A stretch of 64,000 nucleotides of DNA from Holophagae bacterium (GCA_003105185.1 PQAJ01000245.1:35253-99252), one strand, 5' to 3'; positions 6,792 through 58,003 are shown, counted from the first letter of the stretch. A program made the numbers and translations. Notes: generated by a model from the letters alone, not told the origin.

Positions 6792-6838
6792 GGTGGCGAT
6801 CCGGCCCGTGAATCCGCCCGGGTGGCCGGGGAACTAAC

Positions 6839-29997: not shown

Positions 29998-30603
29998 CTA
30001 TCGCGCTTGTTCCTGGACTCCCAGCCCGGTCCCTGCTCCCCGGGGCGGGGTGAGCCCCCGGCGCTCGCAGGTGTGCTCCGACTCGATCCTGAACGTGGTG
30101 TTGAAGCGTGCCCGGTAGTTCTCCATCGCGATCGTGCCGACCAGCTCCACTGTCTCAGCCTCTGAGTAGTGGCGCCGCACCTCCGCGAATATCTCATCGG
30201 TCACGTCCGGAGGAGTCACCGTCATCGCCTCCGCCAGTTCGAGCGCCGCTTTCTCGGCATCGGAGAAGAGGTCACTCGTACGGAACGCATCCAGTTGGGC
30301 GAGTTTCTCATCCGAAGCGCCGGCAATACTGCTCCCGGCAGTATTGGTATCCATTCAGAAGGGGCAGCCGATCATCTCCGCCGCTCTGAGGCAAACAAGG
30401 GAGCGCACCAGCGGGGGGAGGAGCCCGCTCTTCGCTGGCGCTGCACCGAGCGCGCGGCTGGCATGGAGGATGGGCGGGGCATAGGCCTGGATGCCTGCCC
30501 CCGCCGCGGGCTTGCCGAGCCACTTCTCGCCTTGCTCGAGGATCTCCCGCAGTTCGCCTTCGACATCGTCCTTCGTCAGTGGCTGCATCCGCACCAAGGT
30601 CAC
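29998..30603 (-). CDS. AhpD-like / carboxymuconolactone decarboxylase family protein with in-frame UGA (CPF-U): candidate selenoprotein
   Basis: ORFs 30355-30603 and 29998-30354 are contiguous and in the same frame, separated only by TGA at 30355-30357. The combined read is ..LRAAEMIGCPF[U]MDTNTAGS.., which puts the TGA at the second Cys of the family's CxxC. A 9-bp hairpin starts 8 nt downstream. Confidence 0.7.
30324..30346 (-). other. bacterial SECIS-like hairpin
   Basis: mRNA reads UGA AUGGAUAC-CAAUACUGC-CGGGA-GCAGUAUUG. It has a perfect 9-bp stem and a 5-nt G-rich loop that begins 17 nt after the UGA. Confidence 0.55.
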
Positions 30604-32309: not shown

Positions 32310-34112
32310 CTACACGAGCCCCACCGCGTCAGCTTCGATCCCGAGCGCGCGGACCGTCTCGCGGGTGGGGGCGCCGGTCTCGGGATCCCAGCCCTGCTCG
32401 ACGTAGTAATCCGTCACGATTTCGCCGAGCTCCTCGCCGGTCAGCCCCTTGTGCTTCGGGAGGTCCTCCGAGAAGCGCTTCGGGAGGCGGTCGTCGGCCC
32501 GGGTCATCCCTTCGCGCATGTTGAAGAGGCGGGCGAGGGTGAGCCCCCGGTGGGCCGTGGCCACCATCTCGGCCGCGTCGATGCCCCAGCCCGTGACCGC
32601 GTTCAGGATCTGCGCCGTCTGGTCGTCGTCATAGGCGAGGAAGTGGCACATGCCCACCTGGTTGCGGAGGCCGTTCTTGTCGCCGGTCTGGCGCATGTGG
32701 TCGCCGCCGGTTGGCGCCAGCAGGTAGCTGGCGCGCATTGCCGCCATGTGGCGCGGGTCGTGCATGGCCATCTCCATGCCCTTCACGGTCGTCAGGTAGT
32801 CTTCCGAGCCCTGGCCGATCTTCGCCGCGGCACGCTGAGAGCCTTCCGCCAGGAGGTCGCCGATACCCTCGCGCCTGGCGATCATCTGCAGCATCCGGAC
32901 GACCGCGTCGCCATCGCGGAACTCGAGCTTCACGCCGTCCGTGTCCTCGGGCGTGAGGACGCCCTTTTCGTACGCCTCCATCGCCCAGGCGATCGTCGAG
33001 CCCGCGGAGATCGTGTCCATACCCATCATGTTGCAGAGCTCGTTCGACTTGCAGACGGCCACGATGTCGTCGACGCCGAGGTTCGTCCCGAGCGAGGCGA
33101 GCGATTCGTACTCGGGTCCGCCGTACTTCGGGTCGACACGGTAGCGATGCTGTGGGTCAACCGCGATCTTGACGCCCTTGCGCGTCACTCCCGCGTCCTC
33201 CTCGCGCATCTCGATCTGGACCACCTTCTTGCAGCGGACGGAGCAGGCGAAGCACGCGCCCATGTCGATGCGCACCTCTTCCTTGATGGCGATGGCGTCG
33301 ATCTTGTCGGTGCCTTCGAAGGTGCCGAGACGGTAGTTGAGGGTGGGGATGCCGCCGTCCAGGCTCTTGCCCTGCATGGCGCCGCCGGTGCCGTATTCGT
33401 GGAAGCCCCGGTGGACCTGGTCGACCGTGTTGCTGACCCACTTCGAGATGGCGAGCAGCGCCGGCTGGTCGGCGACCCGCACCGGCGTCTTGCCGCGCAC
33501 GGCGATCGCCTTGAGCTTCTTCGAGCCCATTACCGCGCCCAGGCCGCTCCGGCCAGCGAACTCGTTCAGGTCGTTCGCGACGTTGGCGAAGCGGACCAGG
33601 TTCTCGCCCGCGGGCCCGATCTGGGCGACGCGGATGCGGGGGTCGCCAAGCTCGGCGTGGATGGCCTCCTCCACGTCGCCCGTGACCTTGCCCCAGAGGT
33701 GGCTCGCGTCGCGGATCTCGGCCTTGTCCTCGTTGATCCAGAGGTAGACCGGGCGGGCCGACGCGCCATGGACGACGATCGCGTCCCAGCCCGCGCGCTT
33801 GAGTTCGCTGCCCCAGAAGCCCCCGGCCTCGGCCTCGCCAAACCCGCCGGAAAGCGGCGACTTCGCGCCGACACTGTGGCGGCCAGCGCCGGGGACAGGC
33901 GCGCCCGTCAACACCCCGGGGGCGAACACGAGCACGTTGTTCGGCCCGAGCGGGTCGGCCCCGGCCGGCACGAGCTTCAGCAGGTAGTGGCCGATGAACC
34001 CGCGGCCGCCGCCGTACTTCCGGTAGAACGCGTCGCCCGGCTCTTCGACGCTGGTGGTCCCGGTGGCCAGGTCAACGTGGAGGATCTTGTTCCAGTAGCC
34101 GAAGCGTTCCAT
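32310..34112 (-). CDS. aor: aldehyde:ferredoxin oxidoreductase (tungsten/molybdopterin AOR family)
   Basis: 600 aa: MERFGYWNKILHVDLATGT..YGGGRGF.., with the internal C..C...C Fe-S ligand region (GACFACSVRCKK). This is the canonical AOR N-terminus and length. Confidence 0.95.
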   Translation of the reverse strand: MERFGYWNKILHVDLATGTTSVEEPGDAFYRKYGGGRGFIGHYLLKLVPAGADPLGPNNVLVFAPGVLTGAPVPGAGRHSVGAKSPLSGGFGEAEAGGFWGSELKRAGWDAIVVHGASARPVYLWINEDKAEIRDASHLWGKVTGDVEEAIHAELGDPRIRVAQIGPAGENLVRFANVANDLNEFAGRSGLGAVMGSKKLKAIAVRGKTPVRVADQPALLAISKWVSNTVDQVHRGFHEYGTGGAMQGKSLDGGIPTLNYRLGTFEGTDKIDAIAIKEEVRIDMGACFACSVRCKKVVQIEMREEDAGVTRKGVKIAVDPQHRYRVDPKYGGPEYESLASLGTNLGVDDIVAVCKSNELCNMMGMDTISAGSTIAWAMEAYEKGVLTPEDTDGVKLEFRDGDAVVRMLQMIARREGIGDLLAEGSQRAAAKIGQGSEDYLTTVKGMEMAMHDPRHMAAMRASYLLAPTGGDHMRQTGDKNGLRNQVGMCHFLAYDDDQTAQILNAVTGWGIDAAEMVATAHRGLTLARLFNMREGMTRADDRLPKRFSEDLPKHKGLTGEELGEIVTDYYVEQGWDPETGAPTRETVRALGIEADAVGLV

Positions 34113-34148
34113 GAGCTGCCTTTCCCGAGCGATGGTGGGCGAACCGTG

Positions 34149-34412
34149 CTACCCGCCCTCCATGGGGCTGAAGAACACGACATCATCGCCATCGGCGAGC
34201 ACTGAATCGCGCGCGCCCTGGTCGCCGTTGATGCCAATCGTAACGTCTTCCTCCGGCGGCACGCTGGCCGCGGCCATGAGGTCGGCGACGGTCGAGCCGG
34301 GCGGCAGGGTGATGGTTAACGGGCCATCGTGGCCGTTGGGGAGGAGGCGCCGGAGGTCGGCGAACAGCGTGAGACGGACGGCGACGGAGGAGGTCGCCCG
34401 GGTGTGGGGCAT
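34149..34412 (-). CDS. MoaD/ThiS-family sulfur-carrier protein
   Basis: 87 aa ending ..DGDDVVFFSPMEGG* (C-terminal Gly-Gly). It lies 36 nt upstream of aor. Confidence 0.8.
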   Translation of the reverse strand: MPHTRATSSVAVRLTLFADLRRLLPNGHDGPLTITLPPGSTVADLMAAASVPPEEDVTIGINGDQGARDSVLADGDDVVFFSPMEGG

Positions 34413-34451
34413 GGCTCACCGGTAAGAGGAGTGGTGCTTCGAGTATAGCCA

Positions 34452-37671: not shown

Positions 37672-38193
37672 TCAATCGACCAGCGCCTCGATCACCGCAT
37701 CAACGATCGCGTCGGCTTTTGCCCGCATCTCATCGTCGGTCGCGTCCTGGATGGGGTGCGGGACGAAGATGCGCCGCACCTCTGGCAGCCCGAGCGCCTT
37801 CGCCTGCACCTCGGCCGCGTCGCGGAACTCGGTTGAGGCGATGAAGACGGCGGGCTTGCCGTTGATTTCGAACCAGGCCGTGTCGTGCACACTGCACGTT
37901 GTGCAGGATCCTCAGTCAGCGAGCGCTTCGATGACGAAGGCACACTCCTCGGCGACCTTGCGGCGCAGGTCCTCGGGCGCGGGCTTGGTGAAGGTCGGCT
38001 TGCTGTAGTGCCGGAACTCCACCCGCGGCAGCCGCTCCCGCAGGCGCACTTCAAGCCGCGCGATGAGCACATCTCCCCGCGGCTTGGAGATGTTGAGCAG
38101 CGCGACTGTGCCGGTGACTTCCTCCGGCCGGCTGGTAAGCTGCCTCCGGACGGGCACGCGCTCGTCGGTCGGGTCGAGGATGGTGGTGGACAA
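37672..38193 (-). CDS. UGSC-motif protein with in-frame UGA: candidate selenoprotein (173 aa)
   Basis: ORF 37912-38193 (TTG start, GGAGGT 6 nt upstream) ends at TGA 37912-37914. The same frame continues GSCTTCS-VHDTAWFEINGK.. to the stop at 37672, giving ..VIEALAD[U]GSCTTCS... Alternative hairpins follow the UGA. Confidence 0.7.
37884..37898 (-). other. SECIS-like hairpin candidate downstream of the UGSC UGA
   Basis: mRNA reads UGA-N13-CGUGCA-GUG-UGCACG (6-bp stem, loop starting 19 nt after the UGA). Overlapping alternatives are CUGCAC-AAC-GUGCAG and UGCACA-N8-UGUGCA. Confidence 0.4.
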
Positions 38194-38251
38194 GGGGCAC
38201 CTCCGTGGTTGGGGGCATTATGGGGGATGGGGCGTGCGCCGTGTTGGGCGC

Positions 38252-39202
38252 TCAGCCGGTACGGAGGCGCGGATCCAGCAGGTCCCTGAGCGCGTCGCCG
38301 AGCATGTTGAACCCGAAGATCGCCATGCTCAGCGCCAGCCCCGGGAAGATCGCGATCCACGCGTTCTGGCTCATGAAGGTCCGCGCCTCGCGGTTCAGCA
38401 TGCCGCCCCAGGTGGCCGTATCGGGCGAAACACCCAGCCCCAGGAAGCTCAGCGCCGACTCCGAGAGGATGGCCGTGCCGAGGCCGAGCGTCGCCAGTGT
38501 GATCGTCGGCGCCATCACGTTCGGCAGCACATGGAACAGGATGATCCGCGTGTGGGTCGCGCCCGTCGCGCGCGTCGCCTCGACGTAGGCGGTGCTCTTC
38601 ACGCTCAGTGCGGCGCCCCGGATGATCCGCGAGGACCCCACCCCCAGGAGCACACCGATCGTAATCGCCAGGATCACGTTCTGAGTCTGGAACACGCCGC
38701 TCTTCGGCAGTCCGGAAATCTGCGTGTCGGTGAAGATAGCCCCCACTGCGATGATGAAGACCAGACCCGGGAACGCAATGAAAGCATCGATCAGTCGTTG
38801 AGCCAGGATGTCGAAGAGCCCCCCGAAGTAACCGCTCAGTGCGCCCACCACCAGCGATATCAGCGTCGCGATCAATACCGCCACGAAGCCGATGGTCATC
38901 GACACTCGAGCACCGTAGATCACCCGGCTGAAGATGTCCCGTCCAAGATTGTCGGTCCCCATGAAGTTATCCAGGGTTGGTCCACCCAACCGCGGTCCGG
39001 CGCCCAGCTCATTCGGCCCGTACGGAGCAATCAGGGGCGCCGCAATCGCCGCAATGAAATACATGACCACGAGCACCCCACCAATGAGGCCCAGCGGCTT
39101 CTCTCGCACCAGCCGGCGAAGGACATCCACGTAGAACGGCAGCCGGCTTTCCGGCCGATCGATCGGGACCCCGAACGGGGTCGTGACTTGAGTTCCGGCC
39201 AT
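38252..39202 (-). CDS. ABC peptide/nickel-type importer permease (DppC/OppC-like)
   Basis: 316 aa with the N-terminal ..FYVDVLRRLVREKPLGLIGG.. and the EAA-like region ..YVEATRATGATHTRIILFHVLPN... Confidence 0.9.
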   Translation of the reverse strand: MAGTQVTTPFGVPIDRPESRLPFYVDVLRRLVREKPLGLIGGVLVVMYFIAAIAAPLIAPYGPNELGAGPRLGGPTLDNFMGTDNLGRDIFSRVIYGARVSMTIGFVAVLIATLISLVVGALSGYFGGLFDILAQRLIDAFIAFPGLVFIIAVGAIFTDTQISGLPKSGVFQTQNVILAITIGVLLGVGSSRIIRGAALSVKSTAYVEATRATGATHTRIILFHVLPNVMAPTITLATLGLGTAILSESALSFLGLGVSPDTATWGGMLNREARTFMSQNAWIAIFPGLALSMAIFGFNMLGDALRDLLDPRLRTG

Positions 39203-39216
39203 TCCTCACCCCCTCG

Positions 39217-40164
39217 TCATGAGTAGTGGATGCGTGGGTCGAGCCACGCGTAGGTGATATCGACGAGCAAATTCACGACCACAACCGAGACGCCGAGGAT
39301 GAGCACGACGCCCTGGATGGAGGGGTAGTCCCGCTGGAAGATCGCTCCGACCAGGTAGCGGCCGATGCCGGGCATGTTGAAGATGCTTTCCAGGATGATG
39401 GTGCCGCTCAGGGCCACGCCCACTTGCAGTCCGATGATCGTGATCACCGGGATGAACGCGTTCTTCAGCGCGTGCCGCGAAATCACCGAGCGCTCCCGCA
39501 GTCCCTTCGACCATGCCGTCCGGATGTAGTCCTGGCGGAGAACTTCCAGCATCATCGTCCGGGTCATCCGCATCACCGCCCCAGCGAGGCCGACCCCGAG
39601 GAGGAGTGCCGGGAAGAAGAAATAGTAGAGGTGCTCGATCGGCCCGTCGGACCATCCCTTGTAGGTAAGTGGCGGCGCCCAACCCCACTTCGGCGGAAAC
39701 ACAATGAGCAGCGTGGCCGTAAAGAAGTACGGCACCGAGAGCGCGAGGATCGCAAAGCTGCGCGAAAAGTAGTCGCTCATCGTGTCCTGGCGGACCGCGG
39801 AGAGGATCCCGATCGGCAGCGCAATGACCAGGCCGAGCAGGATCGAGTAGAGTCCCAGCTCGGCCGTCACCGGCATGCGGCTCTTGATCTCGGCGGTCAC
39901 CGGCCGCGCTGTCCAGTAAGAGTTCCCCAGGTCGCCCCGCACCACATCGCCCAGGTAGCGAACGAACTGGATTGGCATCGGTTCGTCCAGCCCGAGGTCC
40001 TTCTCAATCTGCGCCCGCTCCGCTTCGCTCGCGTAGGGCCGCTCGGCCAGGATCAACTCCACGATGTCGCCTGGCACCAGCCTGACGATCATGAACGTCG
40101 CAAAGATGACAAGGACGACGGTGGGGACCGCGAGCAGGACTCTGCGGATGATGTACTCCGTCAC
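39217..40164 (-). CDS. ABC peptide/nickel-type importer permease (DppB/OppB-like)
   Basis: The GTG at 40164 has GAGGAG 7 nt upstream. VTEYIIRRVLLAVPTVVLVIF.. and ..YIRTAWSKGLRERSVISRHALKNA... Confidence 0.9.
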   Translation of the reverse strand: MTEYIIRRVLLAVPTVVLVIFATFMIVRLVPGDIVELILAERPYASEAERAQIEKDLGLDEPMPIQFVRYLGDVVRGDLGNSYWTARPVTAEIKSRMPVTAELGLYSILLGLVIALPIGILSAVRQDTMSDYFSRSFAILALSVPYFFTATLLIVFPPKWGWAPPLTYKGWSDGPIEHLYYFFFPALLLGVGLAGAVMRMTRTMMLEVLRQDYIRTAWSKGLRERSVISRHALKNAFIPVITIIGLQVGVALSGTIILESIFNMPGIGRYLVGAIFQRDYPSIQGVVLILGVSVVVVNLLVDITYAWLDPRIHYS

Positions 40165-40236
40165 CTGGACGCTCCTCTCACCACCGGGGGCAGTGCGCTG
40201 CACTGCCCCCGGGTCAGTATTACGGTTTGGCTGGCC

Positions 40237-41931
40237 TCAGGCGTCCAGCCACGCTTCCGCCTTTCGGCCGTCGTAGAGGTCGGTCGGCCAGAACCAGCCC
40301 TTGACCTTCTTATCGGTGAAGTGGTGCAGGTTGGTGGTGAACATGAATGACATCGGGAAGTCCTTTACGATCATCTGTTGCGCCTCAGTGACCAGTTGTT
40401 TGCGCTTCTCGATGTCCAGTTGTTCCGACTGCTTCTTAATGACCTCGAAGATCGCCGGATTATAGTGCTTGAAGAAAGCTGACTTCTCTCCGAAGTACGA
40501 CGCGAGGTTCTCGTCTGGGTCTGGGTTGTTGAGAGGTTGATGATGTGAGAACGTGTACTTATACGAATACGTCTGGTTGTAGTAGGCCGCCAGTTCCATC
40601 GGCTTCAGTTCAAGGTTGACGTTGATCTTCGCCAGCTGCTGCTTCAACACCTCGCCAATCTGGTCGGCCTCGGCGCCCTGCGCCCAGATGGTCTCGCCGC
40701 TGAACTCGCTCACTCCCGCCGCCGACATGAGCTCCTGGGCCTTCTTCAGGTCGAATTCAGCAAGCTCTTCCTTGAGCGCCCACTGGTCGTAAATCGGCAG
40801 GATTGGTCCATGCGCAACGATGCCGTCGCCGTTGTAGACCAGGTCGAGCACCTGCTTCTTGTCGATGGCACGGACCACCGCCTCGCGGAAGCGCGGGTCG
40901 TCGAACGGCTTCGGATACGGCTGGGTGGCGGTCGTCGGCGGCATGCGGAATTGCCGCCAGAACTGCGTCGGCACCGCCTTGTAGTTCACGTCCTTGCGCG
41001 CGTCGCGCACGCGCTGGTTCTGGTTCGAACCGATGACTCCCCCGTCCACCTGCTTATCGATGAACATCGTCGCCTGCGTGTCGCCATCGGTGGAGATCAG
41101 GTATACGAGCTTGTCGACGTACGGCAGGCCGTTCTGCCAGTATTCCGGGTTCTTGTCGAGCTCGAACTTAACGTCCTTCTGCCAGTTCTTCAGGATGAAC
41201 GGCCCTGTGCCCACGGCATGTTCGGTCAGGTCGCCCCACTTCTCGACGGCCTCGCGCGCGATCATGACTGTCCAGGGGCTCGCCAGGTAGCTCAGCATCG
41301 GCGCATACGGCTTCTTCATGGCGATGCTGACGGTGAGGTCGTCCGGCGTGTCGATCTTGTCGATGGCGCCGAGGAAGAAGTACGCGTGCTGGAACTTTCC
41401 GGCCTGATCCGTCATCTGCCGTTCGAGGCTGTACTTCACATCGGCCGACGTGAATGCGCGCCCGTTCACCGGGTCAACGTTCTGGAACTTGATGCCCGGC
41501 TTGAGCTTGATGGTGAAGGTTAGCGGGTCCGGGCTTTCCGGCAGCGACGCCGTTAATTCCGGCTCGATCGTCTTGAGGTCCGGCGTGAACCGCAGGAGCC
41601 GCTCGTTCGTGTTGTTCGTCACCGCCGTGTTGTAGGGGAAGGTATCGAAGTGCGGATCGAGGCTCCGCGGCGAACCACCCATCAGCAAGGTAAGCGTCCC
41701 GCCCGGCTTGGGCGTTTCGGCCTGGCCCCCGGAGGTGGGTGCCGCCGATGGCGAGCCGCTCGGGGTACCAGTGCCGCCACTGGGCTCATCGTCGTCGTCA
41801 TCGTCTCCGCAGCCGATTGCCGCGGCGGTTGCCAGCCCGACACTGCCGGCGCCCACGCTCCGGATGAGCGCGCGCCGCGAGACTCCTCTGTTCGCGAGCT
41901 TTTGCCAGTAGTTGTATTCGCCTCGTGACAT
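40237..41931 (-). CDS. ABC importer substrate-binding lipoprotein, family 5 (Opp/Dpp/Nik type), Tat signal
   Basis: Twin-arginine motif VSRRALIRS, lipobox AAIGC|GDDDDDD, and a 564-aa family-5 SBP-like body. Confidence 0.93.
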   Translation of the reverse strand: MSRGEYNYWQKLANRGVSRRALIRSVGAGSVGLATAAAIGCGDDDDDDEPSGGTGTPSGSPSAAPTSGGQAETPKPGGTLTLLMGGSPRSLDPHFDTFPYNTAVTNNTNERLLRFTPDLKTIEPELTASLPESPDPLTFTIKLKPGIKFQNVDPVNGRAFTSADVKYSLERQMTDQAGKFQHAYFFLGAIDKIDTPDDLTVSIAMKKPYAPMLSYLASPWTVMIAREAVEKWGDLTEHAVGTGPFILKNWQKDVKFELDKNPEYWQNGLPYVDKLVYLISTDGDTQATMFIDKQVDGGVIGSNQNQRVRDARKDVNYKAVPTQFWRQFRMPPTTATQPYPKPFDDPRFREAVVRAIDKKQVLDLVYNGDGIVAHGPILPIYDQWALKEELAEFDLKKAQELMSAAGVSEFSGETIWAQGAEADQIGEVLKQQLAKINVNLELKPMELAAYYNQTYSYKYTFSHHQPLNNPDPDENLASYFGEKSAFFKHYNPAIFEVIKKQSEQLDIEKRKQLVTEAQQMIVKDFPMSFMFTTNLHHFTDKKVKGWFWPTDLYDGRKAEAWLDA

Positions 41932-42099
41932 GCTTTCCCTCCTCGGAAAGTGGCGCCTGCCCCGACTTGGCGGGCAAATCGCAAGCGCCTGAACCGTAAT
42001 AGCCGTCGTGAATAGTTGTCAACGGCGGCACCTATCCTGAGATACGAATGAAATGCTTCTCCGGCTTTATCCAGGCACGTGAAGACGGGGACGCGACAG

Positions 42100-42154: not shown

Positions 42155-43720
42155 CTACTCCCCGATCGCCACCGTCGTCATCTGGCTCCCCATCGGGCCG
42201 CTCACCCACCCGCCAAGGTACGCCCCGAACTTGCCCGCCTCGCCACCCGCCACCACGAACGTGATCATCTCCTTCGAGCGGAACTTCGGCACCAGCGTCT
42301 CCAGCCCGATCCGTTCCGCCTGCGCCTTCGTCAGCCCTTCGGCACAGAACTCGTCGCGCACGAGCTCCCGTGCCGGCCTCGCCGTCACCTCCTGGATGCG
42401 CTCCCGAACCTGGTCCTTGCTCCAGCCGTCCTTCGCGAAGGTGTCGACGTGCTCCGGCGGCACCACCACCACAATCTCCCCATGGTTGTGCTGCTTCGGG
42501 TGCCCGGCGGTCGCCAGCGCCAGCCCATAGCTCGTCGCGAGCGACTCCGCCCCGCGCGAAAGCTGGTCGATGATGCCGTTCGGCGCCCCGCCCGCATAGA
42601 CTGTGACGGTGCTCTGGTCCCTGCGGAAGCCGCGCTCGACGTGGAGCGGCTCCCAGTTGCTCCGCTCTTCGAACTCCGCGAAACAGTACGTGTACTTCCC
42701 CGGCTGGCCCAGCGCCGCGCGGTCGACCTCACCCGGCCGCCCACCCCCGACGTTCCGCACGACCAGCTGCACCGCCCGCCCGATGGTCGCGTTGGCGCGG
42801 TTCCCCTGGCCCAGGACGTTCATCCGGTAGTTCATCCCAATCCGGTCGCGGATAGGGCCGTTCACGATGATTACGGGCGTCGGGAAGTGGGTCGTCGCGA
42901 GCACGCCGTGCATGTTGAACTGCTCCGTCGTGATCGCCTCGACCGCCGCGATGACCACCGGCAGGTACTCGGGCCTGCAGCCGGCCATCACCGCGTTGAT
43001 CGCGACCTTCTCCACCGTCACCGGCGCCAGGTTCGGCGGGACGATGCCGATGACCTCCTGCGGGTCACGCTTCGTGCCGCCGAGCATCCGCAGCACGCGC
43101 TCGGGCGACGGCGGGATGACCGGCAACCCGTCGGTGAGCCCCTGGTCGAACATGAACTCGAAGATATCGTCCGACTCTCCAACCTCGATCCGCCGCGCGC
43201 GAAGCGGGCTGCCCTCTATCTCCGCGGCGAGGCGCTCGGCGATGCCCGGTTCCACCGACTTCGAGCCGCACCCGGGGCGCGATTCCGGGTACCCGGACCA
43301 GTCGATCACCGGCGGGGGCGCGAGCGTGACCGTGATCAGCCGGTGGAACAGCTTCTGCCAATCGTCGCGCCCGAACCCCACGAACCGCTCCAGCTCCTCG
43401 CCCCCGGGACCGGCAAGGATGACCGTTGGCACCGTGTCGAGGTCGTACCGGTAGGAAACGTGGAGCTTCGAGTCGTCGAGCATCGGCGCGGTCAGGCCGA
43501 ATCGCTCCACCAGCGCGGCGTTCCCCTCGGCGTCCTGGCCGATGCACCACACGTCCATCGCCTCGCCGAACGTCTCGGCTGCGGCCTGGATCAGCGGCAT
43601 CGAAAGGACGCAGGTGGGGCAGTCCTCCTTCACGAAACAGAGGAGCGCGTGGCGGCCAGTGGGGAAGGCGCGCTCGCCTCCAGCGGCGTCGGTTAGCGAA
43701 AAGGCGGGCAGTGTGGGCAT
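42155..43720 (-). CDS. thioredoxin-fold (TlpA/redoxin-like, CPTC) domain fused to a roughly 390-aa domain of unknown function
   Basis: The N-terminus is ..ALLCFVKEDCPTCVLSMP..VPTVIL... The remainder (..DGLPVIPPSPERVLRML..AINAVMAGCRPEYLPVVIAAVEAI..FNMHGVLATTHF..) is not a family I recognise. Confidence 0.8.
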   Translation of the reverse strand: MPTLPAFSLTDAAGGERAFPTGRHALLCFVKEDCPTCVLSMPLIQAAAETFGEAMDVWCIGQDAEGNAALVERFGLTAPMLDDSKLHVSYRYDLDTVPTVILAGPGGEELERFVGFGRDDWQKLFHRLITVTLAPPPVIDWSGYPESRPGCGSKSVEPGIAERLAAEIEGSPLRARRIEVGESDDIFEFMFDQGLTDGLPVIPPSPERVLRMLGGTKRDPQEVIGIVPPNLAPVTVEKVAINAVMAGCRPEYLPVVIAAVEAITTEQFNMHGVLATTHFPTPVIIVNGPIRDRIGMNYRMNVLGQGNRANATIGRAVQLVVRNVGGGRPGEVDRAALGQPGKYTYCFAEFEERSNWEPLHVERGFRRDQSTVTVYAGGAPNGIIDQLSRGAESLATSYGLALATAGHPKQHNHGEIVVVVPPEHVDTFAKDGWSKDQVRERIQEVTARPARELVRDEFCAEGLTKAQAERIGLETLVPKFRSKEMITFVVAGGEAGKFGAYLGGWVSGPMGSQMTTVAIGE

Positions 43721-48309: not shown

Positions 48310-49803
48310 TCAGGGCTGTTGGACCTGGAAGCTTCCGAGCCCGGCCGCCTCGAACAGCGGCTGGGCCGCGCGTTCGGTCAGCTCGAACGCCGGGCCGGGA
48401 TACACCCCGATGAACAACACTCCCACCATCAGCACCGCCGCCAGGCACCAGAGTACCGGGCTCACCTTCCACCGGCTTATATCGCCGACCGGGTCGAACA
48501 GGTACATCTGACGGATGATCATCAAGTAGTAGTAGAGGCTGATGAAGCTGTTCAGCACCGCCAGGCCCACCAGCCAGAGCAGTTCGTCGGTCGTCGCGCC
48601 CTGAAACATGAAGAGCTTGGTCGCGAAGCCCGCAAACGGCGGCAGCCCCGCGAACGAGAACAGCGCGATCGTTATCACCAGCGCCAGGAACGGCTGGGTC
48701 TCGGCGAGCCCGCGCAGGCCGGGGATGTCCTCGCGCCCCGTTCGGTTGTAGGCGGCGGTCAGCGCCGCGAACAGCGCCAGCGTTGCCAAGACGTACCCGG
48801 CGATATGGAGGAGGAGCGCCGAAGAGGCATCCTGGCCCACCTTCGCATCGCCGTAGCCGATCGCCGCGATGGTGATGAGCATGTAGCCCACCTGGCCGAT
48901 GGACGAATACGCGACGAGGCGTTTCAGGTTCGATTGCTGGATGGCGACCAGGTTGCCCAGCGTCATCGTGACCGCCGCCAGCACCGCCACCGCCCAGCGC
49001 CATTCGGCCGCGTCGACGATCAACGCCCCCGTGAACAGGCGGAGGATGAGGGCGAAGCCGGCCGCCTTCGAAGCCGTCGAGAGGAACGCCGTGATCGGCA
49101 GGGGCGCGCCCTCGTAGGCGTCTGGCGCCCACATGTGGAACGGAGCCGCCGATACCTTGAAGCCGACGCCGGCGAGGATGAGCATCATGCCGACGATCAC
49201 CGCCGGGTCGGTGCCCGAACCGCGGGCCGTAAGCCCTTCCGCGATGCCCTCGTAATACGTGGTCCCCGTGACGCCGTAGATCAGGCTCATGCCGTAGAGG
49301 AACATCGCGCTCGAAAAGGCGCCGAGGAGGATGTACTTCAGGCTCGCTTCGCTGCTCAGGTTGTCGCGCTTCAGGTACCCGACCAGGATGTAGAGCGAAA
49401 AGCTGAGCAGTTCGAGGGCGATGTAGGCGGTCAGCAACTCGGTCGCGGCGGCCATGTAGACCATGCCGCAGCCGGCCACCAGCAACAGCCCGTAGTACTC
49501 CGCGACCGTCTTCGTCCGCGTGCGCATGTGGGTGGCCGACATCAACGCGACCACGATGACGATGCTCGCGGCGAGCAGCCGGAAGTAGGTGGTGAAGTCG
49601 TCCGAGCGGATGAGGCCCTGGAAGCTGTTCGGGTCCTTGCCGATGAAGAACAGGCCCGAAACGAGCCAGCCGAGCGCGGCGATCGCCGTGATGTAGGCCA
49701 GCCAGTCCTTGCGGAACTTCGGCCAGAAGAGCTCGATGCCGATGATGCCCACGGCCGACCCGGCGGCGATGTATTCGGGGATGAAGATCGTGTAGTCGCG
49801 CAT
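48310..49803 (-). CDS. nuoN: NADH-quinone oxidoreductase subunit N
   Basis: 497-aa polytopic antiporter-like subunit, last in the operon. Its start overlaps the nuoM stop by 1 nt. Confidence 0.93.
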   Translation of the reverse strand: MRDYTIFIPEYIAAGSAVGIIGIELFWPKFRKDWLAYITAIAALGWLVSGLFFIGKDPNSFQGLIRSDDFTTYFRLLAASIVIVVALMSATHMRTRTKTVAEYYGLLLVAGCGMVYMAAATELLTAYIALELLSFSLYILVGYLKRDNLSSEASLKYILLGAFSSAMFLYGMSLIYGVTGTTYYEGIAEGLTARGSGTDPAVIVGMMLILAGVGFKVSAAPFHMWAPDAYEGAPLPITAFLSTASKAAGFALILRLFTGALIVDAAEWRWAVAVLAAVTMTLGNLVAIQQSNLKRLVAYSSIGQVGYMLITIAAIGYGDAKVGQDASSALLLHIAGYVLATLALFAALTAAYNRTGREDIPGLRGLAETQPFLALVITIALFSFAGLPPFAGFATKLFMFQGATTDELLWLVGLAVLNSFISLYYYLMIIRQMYLFDPVGDISRWKVSPVLWCLAAVLMVGVLFIGVYPGPAFELTERAAQPLFEAAGLGSFQVQQP

Positions 49804-51308
49804 CAGCCCGTAACTCCCGGCAGCAGGGTAACGGTCTGCCCGACCCGGTCAGTAAACGGCGCCCACCAGACGCCCATGATGACGATGGAGGCGATGAGCA
49901 TGCCGCCGGAAAGCCGTTCGAGCGGTGTCAGGTCCTTCAGGTCAGACCACCTCACGTCGAATGGTCCGAAAAACACGATGGCGAACAACCGCAGCATGTA
50001 GGCCGCCGCCAGTGCCGCCGCGAAAATGGCCAGCGCGCCGAACACCGGGTACGACCGGAACGTGCCCACGAAGATGTGGAATTCCGCCGTGAACCCGGAG
50101 AAGCCCGGCAACCCGACGTTCGCAAGACCCGCAATGCTGTAGAAGATCACCCAGAGCGGCATCACCTTCGTAATCCCGCCGAAGTCCTTCAGGTCGCGCG
50201 TGTGCGCCTGGTCGTAGAGCGCCCCAATCATGAGGAAGACGAGGGCCGTCATCACTCCGTGGCTGAACATCTGGAGCACCGCTCCAGTCACGCCAATCTG
50301 GTTCATGGTTGCCAGTCCCATGAGCACGTAGCCCATGTGGCTCACTGAGCTGTAGCCGGAAATGAGCTTGAAGTCGCGCTGCGTGAGCGCCGCCGTAGCG
50401 CCGTACACCGCGCCGATGACGCCAAGCACCATGAGGGTCGGCATCCAGAACTCGGCCCCCGCTGGCATCATCTGGATGCCGAGCCGGATGATGCCGAACG
50501 CGCCGAGCTTCATCAGCACGCCCGCGTGCACCATCGAGACCGCTGTCGGTGCGGCCATGTGGCCGTCAGGCGACCACGTGTGGAACGGCCACAGCGCGGC
50601 CAGCACCCCGCAGCCAACCACCATGAACGGGAAGAACACCTTCTGGAACGTGGGGCTCAGCGTGCCGTCGCGGCCGGCGGCCCACAGCTGCTCCATGTCG
50701 AACGTGCCCAGGTTCGCCTCGTGGAAGACGGCGAAGATGCCGATCCAGATGAGCACCGAGCCGCCGACCAGCATCAGCGTCAGCTTGGCCGCGCCATACT
50801 CCTTGCGAGTGGAACCCCACACCCCGATGAGCAGGTAGAGCGGCATGACCGCGAGTTCGTAGAAGAAGAAGAAAAAGAACAGGTCGTACGAAAAAAAGGT
50901 GCCGTAGACGCCCGCGAGCAGCGTCCAGTAGAGGATGTAGAAATCCTTGTTGCGGAAGTCGAGCTTCCAGCTTGCGAGCGCACCGGCGAAGGCAACGATG
51001 CCCGTCAGCAACGCCATCAGCGCCGAGATGCCATCTACCGCCAGGTTGAGCGTGATCCCATCCTTGCCGAGGAAGGCCGTGTTTTCGACCCAGACCCACT
51101 GCAGGCGCATCTGGGCGTCCGAACCGTCGAGCTGGTAAGCCGCAAAGATGTAGATAGAAAGCCCGGCGACGATCGCGCCGGTGACAGCCGAGATGTAGCG
51201 GACCAGCATCTTCTGCTGGCCCGGCGTGAATACCAGGACAAGCGCCGCCAGCAGCGGCACCGCAATGGTGGCGAGGACGACATAGCCCTGGCCCTCGTCG
51301 AAGGTCAT
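49803..51308 (-). CDS. nuoM: NADH-quinone oxidoreductase subunit M
   Basis: 501-aa antiporter-like subunit in the conserved L-M-N order. Confidence 0.93.
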   Translation of the reverse strand: MTFDEGQGYVVLATIAVPLLAALVLVFTPGQQKMLVRYISAVTGAIVAGLSIYIFAAYQLDGSDAQMRLQWVWVENTAFLGKDGITLNLAVDGISALMALLTGIVAFAGALASWKLDFRNKDFYILYWTLLAGVYGTFFSYDLFFFFFFYELAVMPLYLLIGVWGSTRKEYGAAKLTLMLVGGSVLIWIGIFAVFHEANLGTFDMEQLWAAGRDGTLSPTFQKVFFPFMVVGCGVLAALWPFHTWSPDGHMAAPTAVSMVHAGVLMKLGAFGIIRLGIQMMPAGAEFWMPTLMVLGVIGAVYGATAALTQRDFKLISGYSSVSHMGYVLMGLATMNQIGVTGAVLQMFSHGVMTALVFLMIGALYDQAHTRDLKDFGGITKVMPLWVIFYSIAGLANVGLPGFSGFTAEFHIFVGTFRSYPVFGALAIFAAALAAAYMLRLFAIVFFGPFDVRWSDLKDLTPLERLSGGMLIASIVIMGVWWAPFTDRVGQTVTLLPGVTG

Positions 51309-51312
51309 GCGA

Positions 51313-53217
51313 TTAGCCCCTCACCACCAGGCCGATGACCGCAAGCGCGACCACGCCGACGGCAACCGCCATGGCGTAGTTCGGCAAACGGCCGGTCTGG
51401 AGATATTTCAATACACCACCGGAGAACCCGGTTACCTGTGCCGAACCATCGACGCCGGTGTCGTTCACCACGTAGCGGTCGAACCACGAGACCACATAGC
51501 TGAACCCGAGCATCCCCCGGTCGATGCCGGCCTGGTACAGCTCATCGAAGTAGAACTTGTTCCGGATCAGGTCGTAGAGGCCCGGCTGAGCCTCGGCGAG
51601 CTGGGTAGAGCGCTTGATGCTGTTGCCCCAGTACATCCAGCCGGCCAGCAGCAGGCCAGTGGCCCCCATCACAACCGAGGCCGTCGCCCAGGCAAGGTCG
51701 AAGTGGTACCTGTGCGGGCCGTGGTGCGGCAGGAAGATGAACTCCGTGATCCCGCCCGGGAAGCCGAGCGCCTTCCCCACGCCGTGGAAGACCACGAACC
51801 CGGAGACGGCCGCGAGGACCGCCAGGAACATCAGCGGCCCCGTCATCACCAGCGCCGACTCCTGGGTGTGCTCGTGGACGTCCTTGTCCCGGGGTGTGCC
51901 CATGAAGGTCCGGATGAAGAGGCGCGTCGTGTAGAAGGCCGTCATCACCGCCGCAAACGCAAGAATGGCGACCGCCCAGACGCCCCACTTGTCGTTGAGC
52001 ACCACGAAGATCTCATCTTTGCTCCAGAAGCCCGCCAGCGGCGGCAGGCCGGCCAGCGCCAGCGACCCGATGAAGAACGTGGTGCCGGTGATCGGCATCT
52101 TCTTCCAGAGGCCCCCGAGCTTGTCCATCTCCTGGTTGTGGTGCGTCGCGTGGATGACCGAGCCGCTCCCAAGGAAGAGGAGCGCCTTGAAAAACGCGTG
52201 CGTCATCAGGTGGAACATCGCCACCGCGGGGTGCCCCGCGCCGAGCGCGACGAACATGAACCCGAGCTGTCCCACGGTCGAATAGGCGAGCACCTTCTTG
52301 ATGTCCGTCTGGGCGAGCGCCATGAACCCGGTGAGCAGGGCCGTCGTGAGACCCACGATGGTGACCATCAACAGCGCCCCATCGGCCACCTCGAAGAGCG
52401 GCAGCAGGCGGGCGGTGAGGTACACGCCCGCGACGACCATCGTCGCCGCGTGGATGAGGGCGGACACCGGGGTGGGGCCTTCCATCGCGTCCGGCAACCA
52501 CACGTGGAACGGGACCTGGGCGCTCTTGCCCATGCACCCGAGGAAGACGAAGGCCACCGCCGCAAACAGGTAATTCTGGCCGACAGCACCTTCTTCGACG
52601 TGGTGGATGATCTCCTGGATGTTGAAGGTGCCGGTGGCCTTCCAGAGCATGATGATGCCGATGAGCAAGCCGACATCGCCGATGCGCGTCGTGATGAAGG
52701 CCTTCTTCGCAGCCTCCGTCGCGCTCCGCTTCTCCCAGTAGAAGCCGATGAGCAGGAACGAACAGACGCCCACGAGCTCCCACGAGATGTAGACGAGCAG
52801 CAGGTTGTCGGCCATCACCAGCAGCAGCATCGAGGCCACGAAAAGCTGGAGGACGGCGAAGAACCAGTAATAGCGCGGCTCACCCTTCATGTAGCCGATG
52901 GAAAAGATGTTCACCATCAGGGCAACCGTGGTGACGACCGCAAACATGACGATGGTGATCGGGTCGACGTAGATGCCCATCCGCAGGTCGAAGCTCTCGC
53001 CGATGCTGGACCACTCAATGTCGTTGACCACCGGCCCGAGCTTCCCCGGCGTATCGAGGAAGTCGACCAGGACGATAAGGAACAGGAGGAACGACGAGAG
53101 GATCGCGGCGACGCCGAGATAGTCGCCGCCGCGCGGCAGGGCGCGCCCGAACAGCGCGAGTACGAGGAACACACCCGCGGGAATAGCAGCGAGCAGCCAG
53201 GCCTCTTCAGCACCCAT
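51313..53217 (-). CDS. nuoL: NADH-quinone oxidoreductase subunit L
   Basis: 634 aa, antiporter-like with a long C-terminal extension typical of NuoL. Confidence 0.93.
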   Translation of the reverse strand: MGAEEAWLLAAIPAGVFLVLALFGRALPRGGDYLGVAAILSSFLLFLIVLVDFLDTPGKLGPVVNDIEWSSIGESFDLRMGIYVDPITIVMFAVVTTVALMVNIFSIGYMKGEPRYYWFFAVLQLFVASMLLLVMADNLLLVYISWELVGVCSFLLIGFYWEKRSATEAAKKAFITTRIGDVGLLIGIIMLWKATGTFNIQEIIHHVEEGAVGQNYLFAAVAFVFLGCMGKSAQVPFHVWLPDAMEGPTPVSALIHAATMVVAGVYLTARLLPLFEVADGALLMVTIVGLTTALLTGFMALAQTDIKKVLAYSTVGQLGFMFVALGAGHPAVAMFHLMTHAFFKALLFLGSGSVIHATHHNQEMDKLGGLWKKMPITGTTFFIGSLALAGLPPLAGFWSKDEIFVVLNDKWGVWAVAILAFAAVMTAFYTTRLFIRTFMGTPRDKDVHEHTQESALVMTGPLMFLAVLAAVSGFVVFHGVGKALGFPGGITEFIFLPHHGPHRYHFDLAWATASVVMGATGLLLAGWMYWGNSIKRSTQLAEAQPGLYDLIRNKFYFDELYQAGIDRGMLGFSYVVSWFDRYVVNDTGVDGSAQVTGFSGGVLKYLQTGRLPNYAMAVAVGVVALAVIGLVVRG

Positions 53218-53235
53218 GAGTCTTTTCGGCCCCTT

Positions 53236-53544
53236 CTACCACTTCATACTTGCCGCTTCGTCCACGTTGCTCGTGGCGCGGTTGCGGAACAGGCGAATGA
53301 CAATTGCCAGCGCCAATCCAACTTCCGCTGCGGCTACGGTGATGATGAACACGGCGAAAATTGCGCCGAGCACTTTATCCGGATCGAGATAGGCTGCAAA
53401 CGCCACAAAGTTGATGCTCACGGCGTTCAGCATCAATTCGACGCTCATCAGGATGAGCACCGCGTTCCGGCGGGCAAGTACCCCATACACGCCAAGTGAG
53501 AACATGACGGCGCTGAGGACGAGGTAGTTTTCGAGTGGAACCAT
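53236..53544 (-). CDS. nuoK: NADH-quinone oxidoreductase subunit K
   Basis: 102 aa, three TM helices, ..LMSVELMLNAV... Confidence 0.93.
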   Translation of the reverse strand: MVPLENYLVLSAVMFSLGVYGVLARRNAVLILMSVELMLNAVSINFVAFAAYLDPDKVLGAIFAVFIITVAAAEVGLALAIVIRLFRNRATSNVDEAASMKW

Positions 53545-53546
53545 CG

Positions 53547-54047
53547 CTACTCGCCCTCCTCTTGCCGGGCAAGGATGATCGCCCCGATAAGGGCTACCAG
53601 CAAGAGCACGGACGACAGCACAAACGGGACGCCAAAGCCCGTGAACATCCGCTCGCTGATGGTTTCGATGGCGATGTTCGCCGGGCCCTCACCGCTATCA
53701 CCCCAGGCCGTGTCCAGCGCGACCGCCACGAGGATCGTGACCAGCGAGATGCCCAGCAGCAGCGCGAACGGCAGCTGCGGGCCGTTCACCGGCTCCGGCC
53801 GCCCCGCCGCGTCTCTGCGCGTCAGCATCAGCGCGAGCAGAATGAGCACGGTGACCGCCCCGCCGTAAATGAGGAACTGCACCAGCGCCAGGAACTCGAC
53901 CGTCAGGAAGACGTACATCGCGCCGACCCCGGCCATGCTACCGATGAGGAAGATTGCCGCGTGGAGCACCGATCGCGAGAACACCACGCCCGCGGAGGCG
54001 CCGACAATCGCGGCCGCGAAGATCCACCAGAGGACTTCAGTTGCCAT
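53547..54047 (-). CDS. nuoJ: NADH-quinone oxidoreductase subunit J
   Basis: 166-aa hydrophobic protein positioned between I and K. Confidence 0.9.
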   Translation of the reverse strand: MATEVLWWIFAAAIVGASAGVVFSRSVLHAAIFLIGSMAGVGAMYVFLTVEFLALVQFLIYGGAVTVLILLALMLTRRDAAGRPEPVNGPQLPFALLLGISLVTILVAVALDTAWGDSGEGPANIAIETISERMFTGFGVPFVLSSVLLLVALIGAIILARQEEGE

Positions 54048-57942: not shown

Positions 57943-58003
57943 GCGGCACCTCCGCGGAGAAGCGCACCGGCGCGCGCTGTGGTGGACGGGGGCATGATGC
58001 GCA

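What the first reader, a model, noticed from the sequence alone, without database searches (positions are those of the whole stretch)
37672..38193. Second in-frame TGA: a U-G-S-C motif protein (candidate UGSC-family selenoprotein)
**Seen in the sequence**
- A 93-codon ORF (TTG start with a strong GGAGGT RBS) stops at TGA 37912-37914.
- The same frame continues GSCTTCSVHDTAWFEINGKPAVFIAS.. for 79 more codons, giving ..VIEALAD-U-GSC-TTCS...
- Three overlapping hairpin options follow the UGA. The best spaced is CGUGCA-GUG-UGCACG, with its loop 19 nt after the UGA.

**Established knowledge.** I recall an NCBI protein family literally named the UGSC family (seleno)protein.

**Inference.** Two independent UGA-at-redox-motif cases within 8 kb argue that this organism decodes Sec. 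They also argue that both cases are real genes rather than decay.
Basis: partly seen in the sequence, partly recalled or inferred. Interest (0 to 1): 0.7.

Follow-up and report, generated by a model that had tools for sequence, protein, structure and literature searches.

The report
UGSC-family selenoprotein gene, confirmed
The in-frame TGA is a genuine selenocysteine codon in an ordinary member of the long-known "UGSC" selenoprotein family, whose biochemical function is still unknown but which is here shown to pair with a conserved partner gene.

Summary
A 93-codon ORF (TTG 38193-38191, GGAGGT 5 nt upstream) meets TGA at 37914-37912, and the frame runs on for 79 codons to 37672. The joined 173-aa protein scores 159 bits (cutoff 125) on NCBIfam NF041046 "UGSC family (seleno)protein" and matches Pfam PF24696 end to end. 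All 80 related genomic loci retrieved, from Chloroflexota, Binatia and Proteobacteria, carry TGA at this codon followed by invariant GSCTTCS[VLM]HD. In 71 full-length family representatives the same column is Cys in 66. A 6-bp hairpin at nt 17-31 after the UGA, with G23-U24 in its loop, pairs in every sequence. It holds the only three frozen synonymous codons in the gene. No Sec machinery lies in the window, but selA and, in most, selB and tRNA-Sec adjoin the orthologous gene in five alphaproteobacterial loci. The family has been described since 2007-2008, so this is already known. Modest additions follow. UGSC is the second gene of a conserved two-gene module with a TlpA-like-Trx + unknown-domain protein (57/80 loci adjacent; fused in some organisms). 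Opp-like transporter genes split that module here. The predicted fold is flavodoxin-like, not thioredoxin-like.

The parts
38199..38204 (-). Shine-Dalgarno-like GGAGGT, 5 nt upstream of the TTG start
   Evidence: Read directly from the sequence
37915..38193 (-). N-terminal 93 codons of the UGSC gene (TTG start 38193-38191), ending ..VIEALAD
   Evidence: the ORF listing and translation. Homologs called as ~95-aa proteins all end at ..EALAD.
37912..37914 (-). In-frame TGA = selenocysteine codon (residue U94), first residue of the U-G-S-C motif
   Evidence: TGA sits at this codon in all 80 related loci. Cys occupies the same column in 66 of 71 full-length family representatives.
37884..37898 (-). 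SECIS-like hairpin CGUGCA-GUG-UGCACG (nt 17-31 counted from the U of UGA; apical loop G23 U24 G25 = 37892-37890)
   Evidence: 414 of 414 cells paired in 69 unique sequences. Third-codon positions 18, 21, 24 and 27 are frozen while their neighbours vary. T99, C100 and S101 are the only 3 of 51 invariant-amino-acid codons with ~0 synonymous entropy. The register matches E. coli G23/U24 (PMC8659212).
37675..37911 (-). C-terminal 79 codons (GSCTTCSVHD...EALVD), translated only if the UGA is read through
   Evidence: Amino acids are conserved across phyla while synonymous sites vary freely. This part is covered by the NF041046 and PF24696 matches.
37672..37674 (-). True stop codon (also TGA)
   Evidence: Translation
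42155..43720 (-). Conserved partner gene: 521-aa protein with an N-terminal ResA/TlpA-like thioredoxin-fold domain (CPTC motif) and a ~340-aa uncharacterised 'X' domain
   Evidence: A homolog lies immediately upstream of UGSC on the same strand in 57 of 80 loci. The Trx domain is confirmed. The X domain has no PDB or Pfam relative. UGSC and X are fused in single proteins.
38252..42018 (-). Three Opp/Dpp-like ABC transporter genes (SBP_bac_5 40237-42018; permeases 39217-40203 and 38252-39202) inserted between partner and UGSC in this lineage
   Evidence: Pfam. Among the loci, the same arrangement is found only in the closest relative L001.

Best explanation
**What it is.** This is one gene (38193 to 37672, minus strand) encoding a 173-residue selenoprotein of the UGSC family.

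**How the UGA is read.** UGA at codon 94 is decoded as selenocysteine. SelB with Sec-tRNA(Sec) is recruited by a short mRNA hairpin inside the coding sequence, at nt 17-31 after the UGA with G23-U24 in the apical loop. The gene's second TGA, 79 codons later, is the real stop.

**Likely function (inferred).** Sec94 and Cys97 form a U-x-x-C redox pair at the start of a helix in a flavodoxin-like alpha/beta domain. The protein most likely acts as a small selenol/thiol redox carrier. It would cycle between selenol/thiol and selenenylsulfide forms while exchanging reducing equivalents with its conserved partner, a cytoplasmic TlpA-like thioredoxin domain fused to an uncharacterised catalytic 'X' domain.

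**Shown versus inferred.**
- Shown: family membership, conservation of the TGA, Cys homologs, RNA-level constraint on the hairpin, and linkage and fusion with the partner.
- Inferred: actual Sec insertion in this organism, the direction of electron flow, and the substrate.
For: **Family membership**
- NF041046 scores 159 bits against a cutoff of 125, as one stretch covering residues 29-171 across the U.
- PF24696 scores 155 bits over positions 1-171 of 172.

**Conserved TGA and Cys homologs**
- All 80 loci from at least four phylum-level groups carry TGA followed by invariant GSCTTCS[VLM]HD.
- The U column is Cys in 66 of 71 full-length representatives, and the +3 Cys is kept in 65 of 71. The +6 Cys and the His are not conserved.
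- Most database homologs are ~95 aa and end at ..EALAD, which means gene callers truncated them at the TGA.

**Hairpin**
- It pairs in 100% of cells. The only variable pair runs GC/GU/AU.
- Synonymous entropy is ~0 only at codons 99-101 (ACG, TGC, AGT), against 0.38-1.0 at the 48 other invariant-amino-acid codons.
- Divergent Cys-form genes use other codons there and lose the hairpin.
- The register is the same as the E. coli SECIS G23/U24.

**Sec machinery next to orthologs**
- selA adjoins the module in L062, L063, L066, L067 and L076, and selB in the first four of these.
- tRNA-Sec lies directly upstream of the module in L062, L063 and L066, and selD is present in L063.

**Second TGA gene in the window**
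- It matches CMD across its U and carries its own 9-bp hairpin.

**Partner**
- It is adjacent in 57 of 80 loci.
- It is homologous to the upstream genes of Cys-form loci.
- UGSC-X fusions exist.
- TrxR-like and Trx genes lie in Cys-form loci.

**Structure model**
- The Cys-form homolog model has pLDDT 81 and pTM 0.80, with the motif between strand 3 and helix 3.
Against: - No selA, selB, selD or tRNA-Sec lies in the 64-kb window, so Sec decoding in this particular genome is inferred.
- The hairpin is thermodynamically unremarkable on its own (z = +0.89).
- Covariation statistics are uninformative because the stem hardly varies (121 of 500 shuffles do as well).
- The hairpin lacks the bulged U17 of the E. 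coli element.
- One near-identical Cys form (TGT, L081) and one more distant Cys form (L084) keep the stem, so the negative control is only partly clean.
- The redox-carrier role and the interaction with the partner rest on gene linkage and fusion alone.
- The structure model is of a 55%-identical homolog built from a 6-sequence alignment. The motif block has low confidence (pLDDT 58), and the PDB fold matches are weak (E >= 7e-4, TM <= 0.48).
- In this window UGSC is separated from its partner by ~4 kb.
Confidence: 0.92

Rival explanations
1. It is a pseudogene. A nonsense mutation (TGC/TGT to TGA) inactivated a Cys-form UGSC gene, and the downstream frame is decaying remnant sequence.
For: Cys-form relatives exist. 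TGA is one substitution from TGT or TGC. No Sec machinery is seen in the window.
Against: - The same TGA is present in all 80 loci across distant phyla.
- The downstream 79 codons keep their amino acids while synonymous sites vary freely, which is purifying selection on translation.
- A constrained hairpin follows the TGA.
Confidence: 0.02
2. These are two separate small genes: a 93-aa protein ending at the TGA, and a 72-aa protein starting at the GTG at 37890 (MHDTAWF...). Some gene callers annotate relatives this way.
For: the ORF listing reports a 72-aa ORF at 37672..37890. The databases hold C-terminal fragments that begin at VHD/MHD.
Against: - The 7 codons between the TGA and the GTG (GSCTTCS) would be non-coding under this model, yet they are invariant at the amino-acid level in 81 sequences.
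- Cys-form and fusion homologs are single polypeptides spanning both halves.
- One HMM stretch spans the junction.
Confidence: 0.02
3. The UGA is recoded but not as Sec. It could be read as Cys by a tRNA-Sec-like tRNA with cysteine identity, or as Trp or Gly by near-cognate or suppressor read-through promoted by the hairpin.
For: The genome's tRNA-Sec and selA cannot be inspected. Rare database copies carry TGG, GGA or TGT at this codon.
Against: - TGA is the commonest ordinary stop codon among the window's high-GC3 ORFs, and it also terminates this same gene.
- Orthologs sit beside canonical selA, selB, selD and tRNA-Sec(TCA).
- The TGG, GGA and TGT copies are single contigs, each one substitution from TGA. 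They are best explained by ascertainment, since only mutated or mis-sequenced copies get called full length.
Confidence: 0.04

Closest known systems
UGSC-containing protein / UGSC family (seleno)protein (NCBIfam NF041046; Pfam PF24696)
   Same: - It is a full-length match above the curated cutoff.
- It has the same U-G-S-C motif at the same position and the same ~170-aa size.
- Sec forms dominate Cys forms among its close relatives, in line with the GOS counts of 255 Sec to 21 Cys (PMC2398784).
- The function is unknown here, as in the literature (PMC1976440, PMC13188914).
   Different: Nothing essential differs. This copy comes from an uncultured Chloroflexota (Dehalococcoidia/Tepidiformaceae-like) lineage. 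It is separated from its usual upstream partner gene by three Opp-like transporter genes.
E. coli fdhF-type bacterial SECIS element
   Same: It is a stem-loop inside the coding sequence just after the UGA. The upper hairpin ends at nt 31, and G23 and U24 sit in the apical loop, the same positions that contact SelB in E. coli (PMC8659212).
   Different: - There is no bulged U17, because C17 pairs with G31.
- The loop has 3 nt (G-U-N).
- The lower stem is weak and not supported comparatively (88.6% of cells paired, no excess over shuffles).
- No Rfam family matches.
Thioredoxin-fold UxxC/CxxC selenoproteins (Trx-like, Prx-like, SelW-like)
   Same: It has a two-residue U-x-x-C redox motif at the N-terminus of a helix after a beta-strand. 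It is linked to thioredoxin-type partners.
   Different: The predicted topology is five beta-alpha repeats. The PDB matches are flavodoxin-like (lumazine synthase, flavodoxin, TIR, NQO2) and none has a thioredoxin fold. This disagrees with the literature's guess of a 'likely Trx-like fold' (PMC2398784).
Glycine reductase selenoprotein A (GrdA), a small Sec-containing redox carrier serving a larger enzyme and recharged by the thioredoxin system
   Same: This is an analogy only. Both are small selenoproteins encoded next to a larger partner, with Trx and TrxR genes nearby in some loci.
   Different: No sequence or fold relationship was detected. GrdA's motif is CxxU rather than UxxC (my own knowledge). 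No grd or prd genes lie nearby. The substrate is unknown.

Membership tests
UGSC family (seleno)protein (NF041046 / PF24696) | Whole-protein HMM score above the curated cutoff, with a match spanning both sides of the U | tested here: met
   NF041046 scores 159 bits against a cutoff of 125, over residues 29-171. PF24696 scores 155 bits against 25, over residues 4-172 of a 172-position model.
UGSC family (seleno)protein (NF041046 / PF24696) | U/C-G-S-C motif at the conserved position | tested here: met
   The sequence reads ..EALAD-U-GSC-TTC. The column is TGA in all 80 loci and Cys in 66 of 71 full-length representatives. The +3 Cys is kept in 65 of 71.
Bacterial selenoprotein gene (general criteria) | In-frame UGA conserved in orthologs, with a conserved coding sequence downstream | tested here: met
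   All 80 loci have TGA. Downstream amino acids are conserved while synonymous sites vary.
Bacterial selenoprotein gene (general criteria) | SECIS stem-loop shortly downstream of the UGA with G (and U) in the apical loop | tested here: met
   The hairpin spans nt 17-31 with loop G23 U24 N25. It pairs 100% in 69 unique sequences, and synonymous sites are frozen only there. SelB binding itself cannot be tested with these tools.
Bacterial selenoprotein gene (general criteria) | Genome encodes selA, selB, selC (tRNA-Sec) and selD | not testable with these tools
   None lies in the 64-kb window: no tRNA, no Rfam hit, and no tblastn hit to E. coli SelA, SelB or SelD. The rest of the genome is not available. 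Indirect support comes from sel genes and tRNA-Sec that adjoin orthologs in L062, L063, L066, L067 and L076, and from a second Sec-type TGA gene in the window.
Bacterial selenoprotein gene (general criteria) | Selenium actually incorporated at the UGA position | not testable with these tools
   Needs 75Se labelling or mass spectrometry.
E. coli fdhF-type SECIS | G23 and U24 in the apical loop of an upper stem-loop ending at about nt 31 | tested here: met
   G23 and U24 are invariant in 81 of 81 sequences. The E. coli definition is taken from PMC8659212.
E. coli fdhF-type SECIS | Bulged U17 in the upper stem | tested here: not met
   Position 17 is an invariant C paired with G31. The element works like a bacterial SECIS but is not the E. 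coli subtype.
Thioredoxin-fold oxidoreductases (the literature's suggestion for UGSC) | Thioredoxin fold (beta-alpha-beta-alpha-beta-beta-alpha core) | tested here: not met

The most novel reading that the evidence does not exclude
UGSC and its partner (TlpA-like Trx domain plus the unannotated ~340-aa X domain) form a widespread, uncharacterised two-component selenium-dependent reductase. UGSC would be the dedicated selenol carrier, playing a role like GrdA in glycine reductase. The X domain would be a new catalytic fold acting on a small organic substrate. In this lineage the insertion of Opp-like uptake genes into the operon would tie the system to an imported peptide-like compound.
Probability: 0.2. 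Interest if true: 0.6.

Novelty: already known. Interest (0 to 1): 0.25.

Why it matters
- **For annotation.** Standard gene callers split or truncate this gene. Most database relatives are stored as ~95-aa fragments ending at ..EALAD. The few 'full-length' entries are biased towards copies in which the TGA has mutated to TGG, GGA or TGT.
- **For biology.** UGSC is one of the most abundant predicted selenoprotein families in environmental metagenomes, yet it has no known function. The tight, cross-phylum pairing and occasional fusion with a TlpA-like/X-domain protein gives a concrete two-protein system to express and assay. The non-thioredoxin fold prediction also revises a long-repeated assumption.
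- **For this window.** The finding itself is a routine confirmation.

Tried and rejected
1. **Alternative genetic codes.** I guessed that the W and G at the U column in 'full-length' database proteins came from translating TGA under code 4 or 25. This was wrong. The codons are real TGG, GGA and TGT, and ascertainment bias is the better explanation.
2. **Partner as a selenoprotein.** I suspected the 481-aa partner homologs that start at M41 reflected a TGA inside the partner's CxxC motif. The 59 partner genes inspected all have Cys-Cys, so the idea was rejected.
3. **UxxCxxC..H metal site.** The third Cys and the His are not conserved across the family, so a two-residue redox pair is favoured.
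4. **Rival hairpin A** (CUGCAC-AAC-GUGCAG). Its outer pair fails in 29 of 69 sequences, the L034 variant breaks it, and it does not explain the frozen positions 24 and 27.
5. **Lower SECIS stem from the MFE fold.** It has no comparative support.
6. **Covariation statistics.** They are uninformative because the stem is nearly invariant.
8. **X-domain profile.** It found nothing in the PDB or Pfam.
9. **Third conserved neighbour.** None was found.
10. **GOS 'Unknown_1' domain.** It could not be compared with the X domain because the supplement panel is held as an image.

Full report
**1. Observation.**

The feature is on the minus strand.
- The ORF listing gives a 93-aa ORF at 37912..38193 with a TTG start.
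- GGAGGT (38204-38199) lies 5 nt upstream of that start.
- Translating 38193 to 37672 in one frame gives LSTTILDPTDERV...VIEALAD*GSCTTCSVHDTAWFEINGKPAVFIAS...EALVD*. That is 93 codons, TGA (37914-37912), 79 codons, and a terminal TGA.
- The hairpin CGUGCA-GUG-UGCACG occupies 37898-37884.

So the description is accurate.

**2. Family identity.**

With U written as C, the joined 173-aa protein hits NCBIfam NF041046 'UGSC family (seleno)protein'. This model is an equivalog. The score is 159 bits against a curated cutoff of 125, as a single stretch over residues 29-171. It also hits Pfam PF24696 'UGSC' at 155 bits over positions 1-171 of 172. Both matches span the TGA.

**3. Comparative evidence for Sec.**

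*Protein databases.*
- A protein search found 607 homologs. Most are 95-100 aa, cover ~53% of the query and end at ..EALAD, the residue before the TGA. This is the signature of gene callers stopping at a Sec codon.

*Genomic loci.*
- A scan of species-representative genomes returned at least 596 loci.
- The best 80 come from Chloroflexota (Dehalococcoidia/Tepidiformaceae), Binatia, and Gamma-, Alpha- and Deltaproteobacteria. All 80 match residues ~3-173.
- In all 80 the aligned codon is TGA, followed by invariant GSCTTCS[V/L/M]HD.

*Whole family.*
- An exhaustive profile search found 2,906 clusters.
- Among 71 full-length representatives the U column is Cys in 66 and the +3 Cys is kept in 65.
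- The +6 Cys (W 24, C 19, and others) and the His are not conserved.
- The conserved core is therefore a [U/C]-G-S-C two-residue redox motif, not a UxxCxxC-H metal site.

*'Full-length' close relatives.*
- The rare full-length close relatives carry TGT, GGA or TGG at this codon.
- Each is one substitution from TGA, and each still has the hairpin.
- I first attributed W and G to alternative-code translation. That was wrong.
- The simplest explanation is ascertainment: only mutated or mis-sequenced copies are called full length.

**4. The SECIS element.** Numbering starts with the U of UGA as position 1.

*Frozen synonymous sites.*
- Third-codon-position entropy is 1.77, 1.62, 0.97 and 1.69 bits at positions 6, 9, 12 and 15.
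- It drops to 0.10, 0, 0 and 0 at positions 18, 21, 24 and 27.
- It is 0.84 at position 30, where only C or T occur and both pair with G18. It stays at 0.5-1.7 bits at the later third-codon positions.
- Against a gene-wide background of 51 codon columns with an invariant amino acid, 48 have normalised synonymous entropy of 0.38-1.0.
- Only three are ~0, and they are consecutive: T99 = ACG (80/81), C100 = TGC (81/81) and S101 = AGT (81/81).
- The first Ser and the first Cys of the motif vary freely.

*The hairpin.*
- These frozen sites are the stem C17-G31, G18-Y30, U19-A29, G20-C28, C21-G27, A22-U26 and the loop G23-U24-N25.
- The stem pairs in 414 of 414 cells. The single variable pair is GC 54, GU 14 and AU 1, the AU being locus L034.
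- Because the stem is nearly invariant, covariation statistics say nothing (121 of 500 shuffles do as well).
- The single-sequence fold energy is also unremarkable (z = +0.89).
- The evidence is the synonymous-site constraint, not thermodynamics.

*Rival structures.*
- The rival overlapping hairpin is worse. Its outer pair fails in 29 of 69 sequences and is broken by the L034 variant. It also does not explain the frozen positions 24 and 27.
- The lower stem has no comparative support.

*Cys-form controls.*
- Divergent Cys-form genes use other codons here (TCA TGT TCG ACT in L085; TGC TTG GTT in L087) and lose the hairpin.
- One (L084) keeps the stem with loop GCG.
- The near-identical TGT form (L081) keeps everything.
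- The control is therefore supportive but not fully clean.

*Comparison with E. coli.*
- In E. coli the upper SECIS stem-loop spans nt 15-31. G23 and U24 in the apical loop and a bulged U17 are the SelB determinants (PMC8659212).
- The present element has the same register for G23/U24 but no bulged U17.
- No Rfam family matches.

**5. Sec machinery.**
- The window has no tRNA gene and no Rfam hit.
- It has no sel gene among the Pfam-scanned ORFs.
- It has no tblastn hit to E. coli SelA, SelB or SelD.

Indirect support:
- In alphaproteobacterial loci the machinery sits immediately next to the module. selA is present in L062, L063, L066, L067 and L076, and selB in the first four.
- selD is present in L063, and tRNA-Sec (anticodon TCA) in L062, L063 and L066.
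- The window holds a second Sec-type gene. The joined protein matches CMD/AhpD (PF02627) across its U and NF053654 'YciW-related (seleno)protein', though below the cutoff at 119.6 against 310 bits. Its UGA is followed by a 9-bp hairpin with loop CGGGA at nt 21-25 (z = -1.85).
- TGA is otherwise the commonest ordinary stop in the window, and it terminates the UGSC gene itself. This argues against genome-wide reassignment.

**6. Context and likely function.**

*Local genes.*
- All are on the minus strand with short gaps, in this order:
  - a 521-aa protein (43720-42155)
  - an SBP_bac_5 gene
  - two Opp-type permease genes
  - UGSC
  - an ABC ATPase
  - an ABC-2 permease
- No promoter-like or terminator-like site flanks UGSC.

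*The 521-aa partner.*
- It has an N-terminal ResA/TlpA-like thioredoxin domain with a CPTC motif. Support comes from a PDB sequence match (2l5o, E = 2.5e-7) and from Foldseek matches to ResA at TM ~0.8.
- Neither the partner nor UGSC appears to have a signal peptide or membrane anchor. This is my reading of the sequences, with no predictor run.
- The remaining ~340 aa, the 'X' domain, have no Pfam, NCBIfam or PDB relative.
- A homolog of this protein is present in 65 of 80 loci. In 57 it lies immediately upstream of UGSC on the same strand, often 3-12 nt away.
- Among the loci, only the closest relative L001 (92% identity) shares the window's arrangement, with the transporter genes inserted between the two.

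*Family-wide pairing.*
- The genes upstream of Cys-form UGSC genes are homologs of the partner (E = 4e-135 and 8e-76). One of them lacks the Trx domain.
- At least seven cluster representatives are single proteins with a Cys-form UGSC domain fused to the X domain (E from 1e-36 to 1e-74).
- Cys-form loci also carry thioredoxin-reductase-like and thioredoxin genes.
- No third gene is consistently linked. Acyl-CoA dehydrogenase (13 loci), SDR (13), family III CoA-transferase (8) and MFS (7) recur in minorities.

*Structure.*
- An AF2 model of the Cys-form homolog P0005 (pLDDT 81, pTM 0.80) shows five beta-alpha repeats. The motif sits between strand 3 and helix 3.
- PDB matches are weak and flavodoxin-like, not thioredoxin-like.

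*Mechanism.*
- My best mechanistic reading is inference. UGSC is a small selenol/thiol redox carrier whose U94-C97 pair exchanges reducing equivalents with the partner's CPTC domain and/or a catalytic Cys of the X domain.
- The substrate is unknown.

**7. What is known.**
- 'UGSC-containing protein' was reported as a selenoprotein of unknown function in Hyphomonas neptunium and in metagenomes (PMC1976440).
- It was among the most abundant selenoprotein families in GOS, with 255 Sec forms against 21 Cys forms and a UxxC motif. It was more frequent in non-marine samples and described as 'likely Trx-like fold' with a 'UGSC/Unknown_1' fusion (PMC2398784).
- It is listed under NF041046 in recent reviews, still without a function (PMC9312934, PMC13188914).
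- Unknown_1 may be the X domain, but the figure is held only as an image.

**8. Verdict.**
- It is an ordinary member of an already-known family that NCBI's own pipeline names.
- The added value is modest:
  - the anatomy of its SECIS
  - the two-gene module and fusions that define a testable system
  - the split of that module by transporter genes in this lineage
  - a fold prediction at odds with the 'Trx-like' assumption

Noticed in passing
window 29998-30588 (-), TGA at 30355-30357: This is a second candidate selenoprotein gene, CMD/AhpD-like with a C-P-F-U motif. The joined protein matches PF02627 across the U. It also matches NF053654 'YciW-related (seleno)protein', below cutoff at 119.6 against 310 bits. 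A 9-bp hairpin with loop CGGGA at nt 21-25 follows the UGA (z = -1.85).
   Followed up: partly
window 38252-42018 (-); L001 5604-9354: An Opp/Dpp-like substrate-binding protein and two permeases, with no cognate OppD/F ATPase genes next to them, are inserted between the partner gene and UGSC. In 57 other loci those two genes are directly adjacent. Among the loci, the same insertion is seen only in the closest relative L001.
   Followed up: partly
L062 4819-8162; L063 3740-8336; L066 4782-8226; L067 2217-7582; L076 557-1867: In alphaproteobacterial MAGs the Sec machinery lies next to the partner-UGSC pair. selA is in all five loci, selB in four, and selD in L063. tRNA-Sec sits directly upstream in L062, L063 and L066. 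This suggests the pair is a main client of the Sec trait there.
   Followed up: partly
L081 947-1486, L082 10001-10543, L083 333-848: The rare 'full-length' database relatives have TGT, GGA or TGG at the Sec codon and still carry the SECIS hairpin. Each is one substitution from TGA. Protein databases are therefore biased towards mutated or mis-sequenced copies of this family.
   Followed up: yes
proteins P0184, P0204, P0214, P0255, P0265, P0253, P0182: These are single polypeptides of ~485-575 aa with a Cys-form UGSC domain fused N-terminally to the uncharacterised X domain of the partner. In them the UGSC domain takes the place of the Trx domain.
   Followed up: partly
window 42155-43720 (-), partner residues 149-153: An invariant P-G-C-G-S stretch sits in a low-confidence linker between the Trx and X domains of the partner, in an alignment of 53 close homologs. 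It resembles the U/C-G-S-C motif of UGSC. Its significance is unknown.
   Followed up: no
L077 10584-11615: In one Dehalococcoidia locus the only partner-like match (X-domain part, query residues 176-508) lies downstream of UGSC instead of upstream.
   Followed up: no
window 32310-34415 (-): An aldehyde:ferredoxin oxidoreductase (AFOR_N/AFOR_C) gene is directly preceded by a ThiS-like small protein gene, with a Fic-domain gene upstream of both. The order is conserved in L001.
   Followed up: no
window 48310-58119 (-): A NADH:quinone oxidoreductase (complex I) gene cluster is present, with subunits matching Complex1_49kDa, NADHdh, Fer4, Oxidored_q3 and three Proton_antipo_M.
   Followed up: no
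window 4416-6833 (-): A P-type ATPase carries a C-terminal hemerythrin domain (E1-E2_ATPase + Hydrolase + Hemerythrin), which is an uncommon fusion.
   Followed up: no
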